From Leucoraja ocellata (lineage: Eukaryota), in NCBI GenBank assembly GCA_036785375.1, contig JAWMAR010000007.1, forward strand, positions 1,116,001-1,180,000: a stretch of DNA of 64,000 bases, written 5' to 3'. The position numbers are program-made. Positions 48,001-64,000 of the stretch are shown piece after piece (position 1 is the stretch's first letter; each line of letters opens with the position of its first letter).

Positions 48001-51000
48001 GAAAAGCTGAAGAGAAATTGACTGCAAATTTTGCTATGACTACTTAAAAAAAGAATTCTGCTGCAAGCTAGCTAAGGGTCAACCTGACCTTGACCTCTAT
48101 GAAGAGAACAGCACAGGAACAAGCAGATGCCCCAAGATCTTCCTGCAAGCATTTCATACATCTTAGTTTAGTTTAGTTTGGAGGTACAGCACCTTCGGCC
48201 CACTGGGTCCGCGCTGACCAGCGATCCCCGCACATTAACACTGTCCTACACCCACTAGGGACAATTTTTACATTTACCAAACCAATTAACACACAAACCT
48301 GTACCTCTTTGGAGTGTGGGAGGAAACCGAAGATCTCAGAGAAAACCCACGCAGGTCAGGGGGAGAATGTACAGACTCCGTACAGACAGCACCTGTAACC
48401 GGGATTGAACCTGGGTCTCCGGCGCTGCTTTTGCTGTAAGGCAGCAACTCCACCGCTGTGCCACCGTGACTGCCTTGGAGGATCTGAGCCTGAGAATGCA
48501 TTGAGCATTAAGGAGCTGCATGTACTAACACAACGTTTAAGAAACATTTAGACAGGTACATGAATAGGACACACAAAAAGGCTGGAGAAACTCAGCGGGT
48601 GCAGCAGCATCTATGGAGCGAAGGAAATAGGCAACGTTTCGGGCCGAAACCCTTCTTCAGACCCGAAACGTTTCGGCCCGAAACGTTGCCTATTTCCTTC
48701 GCTCCATAGATGCTGCTGCACCCGCTGAGTTTCTCCAGCCTTTTTGTGTAACCTTCGATTCTCCAGCATCTGCAGTTCCCTCTTAAACACATGAATAGGA
48801 CAGGTTTGGAGGGATATGGGCCAAATGTGGGCAGGTGGGACTAGTGTAGCTGGGACATGTCGGTCGGTGTGGGCAAGTTTGGCCGAAGAGCCTGTTTCTA
48901 CGGTGTGTGACCATGACTATCTAGCTTAGGTTGGTGACTCTGAAAACACCCTGGGAGAAAACCCTTTGTTATGGGGTATGTTTGCCTCACAGACCCACAC
49001 TGAGAGTCGAGCTGTGGTCTTAACCATACCTCCTGCAATCATGTGTCACTGCTTAAACATCCAGTGCATCCACATCCCAACAGCTAAATGCTGGAGAAAG
49101 CACGCCGTGTTAGTTGAAGCACACATTGTGGGCTTTGAAAGGTATCTGAGCAACAGGCAGTGACTTTTAAGAGTGCCCAGCCAATGTTAATGAAGGTAAA
49201 TAGCAATAAAAGCAACAAGCTAGTGCAATGTATTCCTGGTTCTACATGTGGTACAGTGCATGTGGTGTGGATCTTTGAGCTACAATTTATGTTGGTATGG
49301 GTGAAATACTTAAGGGGCATTCTTTTAAAAAGGAGGTGAGGAGGAACTTCTTTAGCCAGAGGATAGTTAATCTGTCGAACTCGTTGCCACAGAGTGCTGT
49401 GTAGGCCATGTGAGTGGATATTTTTAAGGCAGAGATAGGCAAATTCTTGGGTGTCAGGGATTATGGGGATACATAGAAACACCAATGTACTTCCTTAAAA
49501 CAGAGAAAAAAACCACTTCTCACTTCCACGTAACAGAGATGTCATCAATATAAGACGCTGCAATGATTATCCCCAGCAAACTTAGAACGTGAATACCAAC
49601 TCATTACAATAACTGATAGCTTAATGCAGACCATATTACTTGCAAGTCTCATTGGAAGTCCTACCACAATTTTCAATGTTTAACAGCTGCAAGAGAGAAA
49701 TTACTTCTTGGTAAATTAAAATTAACTGATATACAAAAATGACGGTCGAAAAGGTTGTGAAGCATGCACAAAATTGCAAGATTTGAATTGTCAAACTATT
49801 GGTAAGTTTAGACTAAAGTTCTAGTGGCGTGGTTAGACTGAAATTTATAGATTAATTTACAGAAGGCTGTGGAGGCCAAGTCAGTGGATATTTTTTAAGG
49901 CAGAGATAGATAGACTCTTGATTAATATGGGTGTCAGAGGCTATGGGGAGAAGGCAGGAGAATGGGGTTCGGAAGAAGAGATAGATCAGCCATGATTGAA
50001 AGGCAGAGTAGATTTGATGGGTGGAATGGCCACATTCTACTCCTATCCCTTATGACCTTATAGATAACTACCATATGTAATTGTGGGTTCGCGCTAACAA
50101 ATTCCCTTTAGGATTCTTCCTGGATGCCAAGAAGTTCAATATATTAAACTTTATTAACCCCAGAAGTTTGATTGCACATTTTTCATCCCCCGAGTAGTTT
50201 TTGTATCAAGCAAAATAGTCCATTGCTGGCTGTGTGAGCTATACATGTGCCATTGGGGTTATGAACGCGGAAACATAGAAAATATGTGCAGGTGTAGGCC
50301 ATTCTGCCCATCGAGCCATCACCGCCATTCAATATGATCATGGCTGATCATCCAAAATCAGTACCCCGTTCCGGCTTTTCCCCCATATCCCTTGATTCCC
50401 ATGGCTCTAAAAGCTAAATCTCTCTTGAAAGAGAGGCGGGAAAATGAGAGTAGGAGGCAGCGATTAGCAATGATTGAATAGCAGAGTGGACGATTAGGTC
50501 GAATGGCCTTATTCTACTCCTCTAATTTGTGAACTTGTGAAAGCTGGTATTCCATGAATAACGATATCATTAGGTGCACGTCTGATGCTGAAACAACAGT
50601 CAGGTGCATTAAAGTGCATGTGGGCGGCACAGTGGCGCAGTGGTAGAGTTGCTGCCTTACAGCGCTTGCAGCGCCGGACACCCAGGTTTGATCCAGATTA
50701 CGGGTGCTGTCTGTACAGACTTTGTACGTCCTCCACGTGACCACATGGGTTTTCTCTTCAGTTTCCTCCCACGCCCTTTGGCCCATTTTGACCATGCTGA
50801 CCAACGATCACCAGTACACACCATAGTTCTATCCTACACACAAGGGACAATTTACAACAGGCAATTAACCTGCAAAACCGCACGTCTTTGAAGCATGGGA
50901 GGAAAGTGGAGCACTCAGAGAAAACAGGGAGAGCGTACAAACTCCATACAGACAGCAACTGTAGTCAGGATCAAACCTGGGTCTCTGTTGCTGTAAGGCA

Positions 51001-63000: not shown

Positions 63001-64000
63001 ACAGCCAGCAATGAACTATTTTGCTTGATACAAAAACTACTCGGGGGATGAAAAATGTGCAATCAAACTTCTGGGGTTAATAACGTTTAATATATTGAGC
63101 TTCTTGGCATCCAGGAAGAATGCTAATGGGAATTAATTAGCACTAACCCACAATTACATATAGTAGTTATCTATAAGGTCATAAGGGATAGGAGTAGAAT
63201 CAGGCCATTCGGCCCTTCAAGTCTACTCTGCCTTTCAATCCAGGCTGATCTATCTCTTCCTCCTAACCCCATTCTCCTACCTTCTCCCCATAGCCTCCGA
63301 CACCCGTATTAATCAAGGACCTATCCATCTCTGCCTTAAATATATCCACTGATTGGCCTCCCCAGCCTTTTGTAAATTAATCTATAAATTTCTGTCTACC
63401 CACGCCACTAGAAATTTAGTCTAACCTCACCACTGTTTGACAATTCAAATCTTGCTATTTTGGTACATGCCTCGCAACATTTTTGACAGTCATTTTATAA
63501 ATCAGTTAATTTTAATTTACCAGGAAGCAATTTCTCTCTTACAGCTTACATTGAAAATTGTGGTAGGACTTCCTATGAGATTTGCAAATAATATGGTCTG
63601 CATTAAGCTATCAGTTGTTGTAATGAGTTGGTAATTACTTTCTAAATTTGCTATGGAAGCTTCTTAAATTAATGACATCTCTGCTACTGAGGAAGTACAT
63701 TGGTGTAAGTTTCAATACGACTGACAACACTGAAGAATTTGTTACTGTAAAGTTGCTTGGTGCTATCGATTTAAATTTTCGAATTTGGCTCACATAACTC
63801 ATTGGCCAGTTTTGCATCAACTTGTAAACCTCACGCCGATGGGCCCGGAATGGCTTTTTGCAGGAAAAACTGTAGTCCAGTTGTAGTCCCACCTGGACTG
63901 AAATGCCATTTTGGAGCAGAATGAAGGAAGTTTTATTCTGCAAGACATTCATGAGAATGCATGGTTCTGCATGATGCAAAATTTGGAAACATATAATTTG

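What the first reader, a model, noticed from the sequence alone, without database searches (positions are those of the whole stretch)
49476..63713. ~0.9-kb local inverted duplication bracketing three ARHGEF28 exons
Seen: 49476-50427 and 62806-63713 are reverse complements across non-TE sequence and two embedded CR1 tails at identical junctions, so one segment was duplicated and inverted ~12 kb away. The arms differ by many substitutions and indels, which argues against an assembly artefact. They enclose exons 52812, 57958 and 59844 (398/401 nt, not a multiple of 3). Established: complementary intronic arms promote back-splicing, exon skipping and ADAR editing. Inference: candidate lineage-specific circARHGEF28, frameshifting skip or inversion breakpoint.
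[Added by the scan's program, not by the reader: the finding's places include an assembly gap (unread letters, written N; its length is only estimated) at 53973 to 54110. Whether the letters on both sides are continuous or in frame is not known: test that first.]
Basis: partly seen in the sequence, partly recalled or inferred. Interest (0 to 1): 0.65.

Follow-up and report, generated by a model that had tools for sequence, protein, structure and literature searches.

The report
Inverted retroposon copies flanking ARHGEF28 exons
Two diverged, oppositely oriented copies of a ~0.95-kb repeat lie in the introns either side of three ARHGEF28 exons in a skate-like genome; they look like two separate mobile-element insertions, an ordinary arrangement that could still promote a circular RNA.

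Summary
Window 49470-50429 and 62808-63713 are reverse complements: 88.6% over 902 columns, 90.9% without gaps, and the strongest self-match in the window. They lie in the introns flanking three ARHGEF28 exons (208+115+75/78 = 398/401 nt, canonical splice sites, mutually in frame). The N gap (53973-54110) is intronic. Orthologue residues run straight across the E1/E2 junction, so no coding exon is missing.

The "local inverted duplication" reading is only partly supported. The left arm is a clean insertion into an older LINE tail and ends in the exact octamer that ends one embedded LINE-tail family. The right arm is bracketed by a 7-nt direct repeat (chance 0.008). The left arm also carries about 7 nt of LINE sequence that the right arm lacks. 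Best reading (0.55): two separate insertions of one composite, CR1-type-tailed retroposed unit. Genome-wide copy number could not be tested.

Pairing potential in the pre-mRNA is large (827 bp, longest perfect helix 69 bp; ten-fold stronger than any competing inverted pair). Back-splicing, exon skipping and editing remain untested inferences. Ordinary in kind, with modest interest.

The parts
49470..50429 (-). Arm L: a 960-nt inserted copy of the composite unit (unit sense is the minus strand, antisense to ARHGEF28). Unambiguous homology with R runs 49481-50424.
62808..63713 (+). Arm R: a 906-nt copy of the same unit, in the sense orientation of the gene.
62801..62807 (+). 7-nt direct repeat (AATACGA) immediately 5' of arm R. 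Candidate target-site duplication, copy 1.
   Evidence: simulation 1573/200000 = 0.008
63714..63720 (+). 7-nt direct repeat (AATACGA) immediately 3' of arm R. Candidate target-site duplication, copy 2.
49324..49469 (+). A0-left: the first part of an older LINE 3' end (ORF2 C-terminus plus tail), cut off by the arm L insertion. An ORF2-like reading is visible from 49279.
50430..50545 (+). A0-right: continuation of the same older LINE tail. It resumes at the reference position where A0-left stops.
   Evidence: reference index 166|165, 120|120, 116|116; 0/200 shuffles each; nhmmer 45 bits
50268..50429 (-). B_L: a 5'-truncated LINE tail of the family whose fixed 3' end is the repeated octamer TTTCTATG. 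It reaches about 7 nt further into the family sequence than B_R.
62808..62970 (+). B_R: the same LINE tail in arm R.
49855..50062 (+). A_L: the second embedded LINE tail, antisense to the unit. An 8-nt direct repeat (TTATAGAT) flanks it in both arms.
63172..63380 (-). A_R: the same embedded LINE tail in arm R.
49472..49479 (-). Exact B-family octamer at the 3' end of the arm L insertion (reads TTTCTATG on the minus strand).
40080..40444 (+). ARHGEF28 exon upstream of the bracketed block. Its donor at 40445 opens the 12,367-nt intron that holds arm L.
52812..53019 (+). Exon E1 (208 nt).
57958..58072 (+). Exon E2 (115 nt).
59844..59921 (+). Exon E3 (75 or 78 nt, with tandem donors after 59918 and 59921).
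53973..54110 (.). Assembly gap (138 N) in the E1-E2 intron, inside a stretch bounded by the 37-nt inverted pair 53534-53570 / 54462-54498 that interrupts a degenerate LINE ORF2.
61665..61802 (+). LINE tail in the downstream intron that could compete with arm L for pairing to A_R (84.5% over 129 nt).

Best explanation
The two arms are two copies, inserted in opposite orientation, of one composite retroposed unit of about 0.93-0.96 kb.

Unit structure, read in its sense direction: a 5'-truncated CR1-type LINE tail (B), about 200 nt of otherwise unmatched sequence, a second LINE tail in antisense (A), about 370 nt of unmatched sequence, and then a short tail of the B-family octamer type.

Shown:
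- Each arm carries insertion hallmarks of its own.
- The nested tails were already in place before the copies separated.
- The copies have since diverged by about 9%.

Inferred:
- Both were made by reverse transcription of one master RNA by a CR1-group LINE enzyme. That makes them members of a dispersed family rather than a DNA-level local duplication.
- Because both arms lie in one ARHGEF28 pre-mRNA, they can pair into an imperfect duplex of about 830 bp. That duplex loops out exons E1-E3 and brings the E3 donor near the E1 acceptor.
- Such pairing would favour a 398/401-nt exonic circle, or less likely a frameshifting skip, and would offer a substrate for A-to-I editing. This is the way inverted Alu pairs act in primates.

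No RNA evidence exists here for any of these effects.
For: - Arms: 88.6% over 902 columns and the top self-match in the window.
- L is an insertion. Its flanks 49324-49469 and 50430-50545 abut at the same position of three reference LINE tails (index 166|165, 120|120, 116|116; 0 of 200 shuffles reach each score). That host tail is far older: 77% identical to the family consensus, against about 91% for A in the arms.
- L's 3' end is an exact B-family octamer, in the same orientation as its internal B tail. The octamer occurs only 14 times on the two strands of the 64-kb window, mostly at B-family ends.
- R is bracketed by a perfect 7-nt direct repeat; 1573 of 200000 random pseudo-boundaries do as well.
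- After the last shared bases the two 3' tails differ.
- L's 5' end runs about 7 nt further along the B-family sequence than R's, so L is not a copy of present-day R.
- There is no significant homology beyond either end of the arms (126/300 and 117/300 shuffles reach the observed score).
- The B family has a fixed octamer end and variable opposite ends in 10 aligned copies, as 5'-truncated LINEs do. CR1 3' ends with a hairpin plus an 8-nt microsatellite are described in PMC8665684 and PMC4316615 (passages).
- CR1-group elements make up 22-34% of elasmobranch genomes (PMC13343379, passage).
- Pairing: RNAduplex -1346 kcal/mol, 827 pairs, longest perfect helix 69 bp, against -270 to -304 for 5 shuffles.
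- The arm pair scores 1145 bits. The next pair across the same exons scores 131 bits and the strongest competitor within the downstream intron 143 bits.
- Exons, splice sites and phases.
Against: - No third copy of the non-LINE parts exists in the 64-kb window (nhmmer --max and blastn word 7). Two copies 12 kb apart would be unlikely unless the family has roughly 10^4 or more copies (my estimate). Proximity is what a local duplication predicts.
- The two 5' ends lie within about 7 nt of each other. That needs a master RNA with a defined 5' end, or a truncation hot spot.
- The unit's own 3' end has no significant hairpin (z 0.20 and 0.44).
- R's tail matches the octamer only in part.
- L has at most 1-2 nt of target duplication.
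- B shows as many changes shared by both arms (7 of 149 scored columns) as A does (6 of 136). B was therefore not freshly copied from an active LINE when the arms separated, which speaks against a simple 3'-transduction by B.
- The direct repeat and the octamer were noticed after looking, so their p-values are optimistic.
- Genome-wide copy number, orthologous empty sites and all RNA-level effects are untested.
Confidence: 0.55

Rival explanations
1. Local inverted duplication. One arm is the parent of the other. The copy would arise either by a DNA-level templated insertion (replication template switching or break repair using a nearby template) or by reverse transcription of a local transcript that re-inserted 12 kb away.
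For: - The copies are close, inverted and only two in the window.
- All internal junctions are shared.
- Private changes are symmetrical: L 7+6, R 10+5.
- L is clearly the derived, inserted copy.
- A nearby template in inverted orientation is typical of replication-based template switching (established knowledge, recalled).
Against: - If R were the source, its homology boundary falls by coincidence at the 5' truncation point of B.
- R is bracketed by a 7-nt direct repeat (p about 0.008).
- L carries about 7 nt of extra B-family sequence absent from R.
- L ends in an exact B-family octamer that R lacks.
- If L were the source, L is itself an insertion, so a mobile unit is implied anyway.
Confidence: 0.3
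2. Functional reading, independent of origin. The pair drives a lineage-specific 398/401-nt circARHGEF28 (E3 donor joined to E1 acceptor) at a detectable level, with hyper-editing of the arms.
For: - Dominant complementarity across the introns, with a 69-bp perfect helix.
- The arms lie 2,382 and 2,886 nt from the splice sites, and the flanking introns are long (12,367 nt and more than 4 kb).
- Inverted repeats of 30-40 nt suffice in minigenes (PMC4201285; start of abstract in the listing).
- Human ARHGEF28 does give circles, but from a single exon 11 of 281 nt (PMC10323094, PMC11264966, passages).
Against: - No RNA data of any kind were available.
- The human circle is a different, single-exon product. 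Its orthology to E1-E3 was not examined.
- A LINE tail inside the downstream intron can compete for part of arm R.
- Most inverted-repeat pairs give low-level circles with no known role (established knowledge, recalled).
Confidence: 0.3
3. Assembly artefact: a false inverted duplicate or a mis-join near the gap.
For: A 138-N gap lies between the arms.
Against: - The arms differ at 81 positions and 10 indels.
- The gap is 3.5 kb from arm L and 8.7 kb from arm R.
- A 37-nt inverted pair brackets the gap, and pieces of one LINE ORF2 lie on the same strand on both sides.
- Exon order and strand match the orthologues.
Confidence: 0.03

Closest known systems
Inverted Alu (IRAlu) pairs flanking circularised exons in primates
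   Same: Two oppositely oriented copies of a retroposed repeat sit in the introns on either side of an exon block. The pairing across the block is stronger than pairing within each intron, and the exons have canonical splice sites.
   Different: - The repeat is about 0.95 kb rather than 0.3 kb.
- It is composite and LINE-tail derived, with no tRNA or 7SL head.
- Its copy number is unknown.
- No back-splice evidence exists here.
Composite non-autonomous retroposons such as SVA, and LINE 3'-transduction products
   Same: A unit built from pieces of other repeats plus unmatched sequence, with defined ends, carrying the tail type of the LINE family assumed to move it. SVA as a composite element is described in PMC3287187 (start of abstract in the listing).
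   Different: - The tail is an octamer microsatellite of CR1 type, not poly(A).
- Only two copies were seen.
- There is no hairpin at the unit's end.
- The B part was not fresh at the time of copying.
Local inverted segmental duplication / templated insertion (replication template switching)
   Same: Two nearby inverted copies, about 9% diverged. One of them (L) is clearly an insertion with 0-2 nt of junction overlap.
   Different: The presumed source (R) itself carries a bracketing direct repeat and lacks bases that the copy has.

Membership tests
Local inverted segmental duplication | The segment is otherwise unique in the genome (two copies only). | not testable with these tools
   No eukaryote genome collection was available. 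Within the 64-kb window there are 0 further copies of the non-LINE parts.
Local inverted segmental duplication | The source copy is resident sequence without insertion hallmarks, and the copy holds nothing the source lacks. | tested here: not met
   R is bracketed by a 7-nt direct repeat (p 0.008). L has about 7 nt more B-family sequence than R. L is itself an insertion.
Local inverted segmental duplication | Nested repeats are shared at identical junctions. | tested here: met
   The A and B junctions are identical in both arms. This fits a mobile composite unit equally well.
Non-LTR (CR1-group) retroposed insertion | An empty site can be demonstrated. | tested here: inconclusive
   L: met through three paralogous LINE tails. 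R: its flanks are unique in the window, so this could not be tested.
Non-LTR (CR1-group) retroposed insertion | Target-site duplication. | tested here: inconclusive
   R has 7 nt. L has at most 1-2 nt.
Non-LTR (CR1-group) retroposed insertion | The 3' end carries the family's microsatellite and an upstream hairpin. | tested here: inconclusive
   L ends in the exact octamer and R matches only in part. There is no significant hairpin at the unit's end (z 0.20 and 0.44).
Non-LTR (CR1-group) retroposed insertion | Many dispersed copies with the same 3' end. | not testable with these tools
   Only the window could be searched.
CR1-group LINE tails (embedded A and B) | A fixed 3' end with variable 5' truncation, an 8-nt microsatellite and a 3' hairpin. 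| tested here: inconclusive
   - B has a fixed end with a repeated octamer and variable other ends in 10 copies.
- The octamer differs at 1 of 8 positions from the avian ATTCTRTG (PMC8665684).
- A 5-bp hairpin is predicted, but 0 of 16 pairs show compensatory change.
- An esterase-type ORF1 lies nearby at 56089-56574. Esterase ORF1 is the only identifiable ORF1 type in CR1 and L2 (PMC13343379).
- No RT phylogeny was done.
Inverted-repeat-flanked circRNA locus | Reverse-complementary sequences in both flanking introns that are stronger across than within introns, plus canonical splice sites. | tested here: met
Inverted-repeat-flanked circRNA locus | Back-splice junction reads that resist RNase R. 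| not testable with these tools
   No RNA data.
ARHGEF28 (host gene) | The exon peptides match ARHGEF28 orthologues in order and in frame. | tested here: met
   - E1 peptide: 19 hits at E<=0.001 among 79 candidates. All are chondrichthyan; 18 are named rho GEF 28 and 1 is 'hypothetical' with a UniRef Rho-GEF name. The best are Mobula 87% and Rhinoraja 86%.
- tblastn of 4 of those 19 proteins: E1 and E2 were found with all 4, E3 with 2 of 4. Residues are contiguous.

The most novel reading that the evidence does not exclude
The unit is an undescribed SVA-like composite retroposon family of skates, moved by a CR1-group LINE through its octamer tail. This particular inverted pair creates a batoid-specific 398/401-nt circular ARHGEF28 RNA and a hyper-edited intronic duplex.
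Probability: 0.1. Interest if true: 0.5.

Novelty: new member of a known kind. Interest (0 to 1): 0.25.

Why it matters
If the arms pair in the pre-mRNA, they give a clean natural test of repeat-driven exon circularisation outside mammals. The locus offers one dominant 0.9-kb pair, three small exons and a gene that also makes circles in human. The junction anatomy also hints that CR1-type LINEs in cartilaginous fishes can move composite, non-LINE sequence. As it stands, this is an ordinary arrangement in a genome rich in CR1-group repeats, with no evidence of function.

Tried and rejected
- Extending the homology beyond the arms: not significant (126/300 and 117/300 shuffles reach the score). 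A collinear 13/15 match in the outer flank is noted but not relied on.
- Searching for a third copy of the non-LINE parts in the window: none found.
- Paralogous empty site for R: its flanks are unique.
- Coding potential of the arms: 0 of 10 ORFs reach a Pfam cut-off; one CRCB hit scores 15.6 bits against a cut-off of 32.9.
- Rfam and tRNA heads in the arms: none.
- Placing the LINE ORF2 pieces on either side of the gap onto a solved reverse transcriptase: only chance-level PDB hits, E 0.15-1. Pfam RVT_1 scores 17.8 bits against a cut-off of 29.6. No second LINE copy in the window holds both motifs. Collinearity across the gap therefore rests on strand, on the bracketing 37-nt inverted pair and on the known order of RT motifs.
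- Simple 3'-transduction by an active B element: weakened, because B carries as many shared changes as A.
- Terminal inverted repeats or LTR-type ends on the unit: none seen by eye.
- Mirror-image extension of the arms through the 48789-48901 repeat: rejected. Its partners at 60218-60330 and 62171-62284 lie on the inner side of R, so they are separate repeat copies.
- Joined E1-E2-E3 model: not searched; the exons were handled one by one.
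Full report
**The gap first.**
- The window has one N run, 53973-54110 (138 N).
- It lies between exons E1 (52812-53019) and E2 (57958-58072), so no reading frame of the gene passes through it.
- E1 ends on a complete codon and E2 starts on one.
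- In tblastn of four named orthologues against the window, the residues on either side of the E1/E2 junction are adjacent in 4 of 4 proteins. Examples are Rhinoraja 380-449 | 449-487 and Pristis 524-593 | 593-631. No coding exon is therefore hidden in the gap.
- The 185 nt to the left of the gap and the 17 nt to its right have no other copy in the window.
- A 37-nt inverted pair (53534-53570 / 54462-54498, 89%) brackets the gap. Pieces of one degenerate LINE ORF2 lie on the plus strand on both sides: a QG..LGP-type motif and LDEGI before 53540, and an FA[DG][DH]T-type motif at 54514-54531.
- Order and orientation across the gap are thus supported, but its length is not. The arm spacing of 12,378 nt is only an estimate.
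- Attempts to place the two ORF2 pieces on a reference reverse transcriptase failed.
- The gap was not filled, and no letters for it were sought elsewhere.

**The observation.**
- The repeat finder reports four collinear inverted pieces, each 91% complementary.
- Gapped blastn joins them: 49522-50421 against 63696-62813, 88.6% over 902 columns, 1145 bits.
- This is the best of 474 non-self HSPs in the window; the next scores 647 bits.
- A global alignment places unambiguous homology at 49481-50424 and 63713-62808, with 813 matches, 81 mismatches (42 transitions, 39 transversions, 9 at CpG), 10 indels and K2P 0.097.

**What is inside the arms.**
- Two parts have other copies in the window.
- Part A (L 49855-50062) is the 3' end of a LINE, comprising the ORF2 C-terminus and tail. 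Five further copies of 129-179 nt exist.
- Part B (L 50268-50429) belongs to a related family. In ten aligned copies it has one sharply fixed end made of a repeated octamer, TTTCTATG, and variable opposite ends. That is the pattern of 5'-truncated LINEs.
- The octamer differs at one position from the avian CR1 microsatellite ATTCTRTG (PMC8665684, passage).
- A 5-bp hairpin is predicted upstream of it, without compensatory changes (0 of 16 pairs).
- An esterase-type ORF1 at 56089-56574 (Pfam Lipase_GDSL_2, 40.5 bits) shows that CR1/L2-type LINEs are present. Esterase ORF1 is the only identifiable ORF1 type in those lineages (PMC13343379, passage).
- "CR1 tails" is therefore reasonable as "CR1-group tails". 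I did no RT phylogeny.
- The remaining 570 nt of each arm has no further copy in the window, no Pfam hit above cut-off, and no Rfam or tRNA match.
- A and B sit at identical junctions in both arms, so they were in place before the copies separated.

**The junctions.**
- *L is an insertion.*
  - The sequence left of arm L (49324-49469, with an ORF2-like reading from 49279) and the sequence right of it (50430-50545) are the two halves of one older LINE 3' end.
  - Against three reference copies, the left half stops at index 166, 120 and 116. The right half starts at 165, 120 and 116. In each of the six alignments 0 of 200 shuffles reach the score.
  - Arm L (49470-50429) is therefore a clean 960-nt insertion with at most 1-2 nt of overlap.
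- *Extra bases and tail of L.*
  - Read in the sense of B, the L insert begins about 7 nt further into the B-family sequence than R does. L cannot be a copy of R as R now stands.
  - The L insert ends in an exact TTTCTATG. This octamer occurs 14 times on the two strands of the window, mostly at B-family ends.
- *R has its own hallmarks.*
  - R ends differently after the last shared bases.
  - It is bracketed by a perfect 7-nt direct repeat at 62801-62807 and 63714-63720. In a simulation, 1573 of 200000 random pseudo-boundaries did as well (0.008).
- *No extension beyond the arms.* No significant homology extends past either end, and R's flanks have no paralogue in the window.

**Weighing the origin.**
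- Under a local duplication with R as source, four things must be coincidence:
  - the R boundary falls at B's truncation point;
  - a direct repeat lies around R;
  - L has extra B bases;
  - L ends in the octamer.
- Under two retropositions of one unit these follow naturally. Two other things then need explaining: why two copies lie 12 kb apart, and why their 5' ends agree to within 7 nt.
- Proximity is unremarkable only if the family has about 10^4 or more copies. That is my estimate from two copies per 64 kb. For comparison, the A and B tails have about 9-10 copies each in this window.
- Against a simple 3'-transduction by an active B element, B carries as many changes shared by both arms (7 of 149 columns) as A does (6 of 136).
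- The unit's end has no significant hairpin.
- I put two insertions of one composite retroposed unit at 0.55. I put a local copy of one arm from the other, by DNA or RNA, at 0.30.
- The deciding test is a search of the whole genome and of related skates.

**The gene and the exons.**
- The E1 peptide, searched alone, finds 19 proteins at E<=0.001 among 79 candidates. All are ARHGEF28 of cartilaginous fishes; the best are Mobula birostris 87% and Rhinoraja longicauda 86%.
- No identical protein was listed.
- Across exons the skate Rhinoraja is closest, at 88% over the 123-aa upstream exon. A rajiform origin is therefore likely but not shown.
- Exons on the plus strand:

| Exon | Coordinates | Length |
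|---|---|---|
| further upstream | about 3535-3630, 7012-7077, 37897-38040 | - |
| immediately upstream | 40080-40444 | 365 nt |
| E1 | 52812-53019 | 208 nt |
| E2 | 57958-58072 | 115 nt |
| E3 | 59844-59918 or 59921 | 75 or 78 nt |

- All have AG/GT boundaries and matching phases.
- E3 was matched by 2 of the 4 orthologues only (E 0.007 and 0.066), because it is short.
- Arm L lies in the 12,367-nt intron upstream of E1, 2,382 nt from the acceptor. Arm R lies 2,886 nt downstream of the E3 donor, in an intron that runs off the window.

**How it could work.**
- Both arms are transcribed within one pre-mRNA.
- RNAduplex predicts 827 pairs and -1346 kcal/mol, against -270 to -304 for five shuffles. 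The longest perfect helix is 69 bp, ending at 50219.
- Among inverted pairs within the four introns, the arm pair (1145 bits) dwarfs the next pair spanning the same exons (131 bits). It also dwarfs the one competitor inside the downstream intron (61670-61798 with 63176-63304, 143 bits).
- Inverted repeats of 30-40 nt suffice for circularisation in minigenes (PMC4201285; start of abstract as listed).
- That complementary introns also promote skipping and editing is established knowledge that I recall, not something I looked up.
- Human ARHGEF28 yields a circle from a single 281-nt exon 11 (PMC10323094, PMC11264966, passages). I did not examine whether that exon corresponds to any exon here, and I used no human sequence.
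- One broad search surfaced no circRNA study of cartilaginous fishes among its top listings. That is weak evidence of absence.
- Nothing here shows that the circle, the skip or the editing occur.
- An inversion between the arms is not seen. The exons keep the order and strand of the orthologues. With 91% identity and a 69-bp longest perfect match, recombination between the arms would be inefficient; this is an inference from recalled knowledge.

**Verdict.**
- The "local inverted duplication" reading is only partly supported, and more likely wrong in mechanism.
- The functional ideas are plausible by analogy but untested.
- In a genome where CR1-group repeats make up a fifth to a third of the DNA (PMC13343379), an inverted pair of repeat copies around exons is an ordinary thing.
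- This pair stands out only by its length and by the composite make-up of the unit.
- Supplementary files of the papers were not consulted.

Noticed in passing
window 48566-48754: A near-perfect palindrome: 90-nt arms, 96% complementary, 9-nt loop. It belongs to a short dispersed family with copies at 53704-53787, 54128-54382, 56990-57074 and elsewhere. It gives miRNA-family hits well below the gathering scores (best mir-559, 65 bits against 95). It looks like a MITE-type hairpin, not a curated miRNA.
   Followed up: partly
window 50130-50279 (and 63104-62955): Within the arms this 150-nt stretch is 97-98% identical, against about 90% elsewhere. It holds the 69-bp perfect helix. Possible causes are gene conversion between the arms, constraint, or chance. 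The contrast is modest: 11/206 mismatches in this segment against 70/688 in the rest.
   Followed up: partly
window 56089-56574 (+): A 161-aa open frame with a GDSL-lipase/esterase domain (40.5 bits; cut-off 32.9). This is the ORF1 type of CR1/L2 LINEs. It lies in the E1-E2 intron.
   Followed up: partly
window 53534-54498: A stretch of about 960 nt bounded by a 37-nt inverted pair interrupts a LINE ORF2 and contains the assembly gap. A 255-nt self-complementary stretch (54128-54382) follows the gap closely. Such palindromes may be why the assembly broke here.
   Followed up: partly
window 59915-59927: E3 has two donors 3 nt apart (after 59918 and after 59921). The second has the better GTAAGT. 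The Pristis orthologue lacks the extra residue.
   Followed up: no
window 58758-59300: A G+C-rich stretch in the E2-E3 intron has long open frames on both strands and reiterated peptide motifs. It is probably a tandem or low-complexity repeat.
   Followed up: no
window 41723-42479: Overlapping direct self-matches (73-77% over 300-670 nt) suggest a tandem array in the intron upstream of E1.
   Followed up: no
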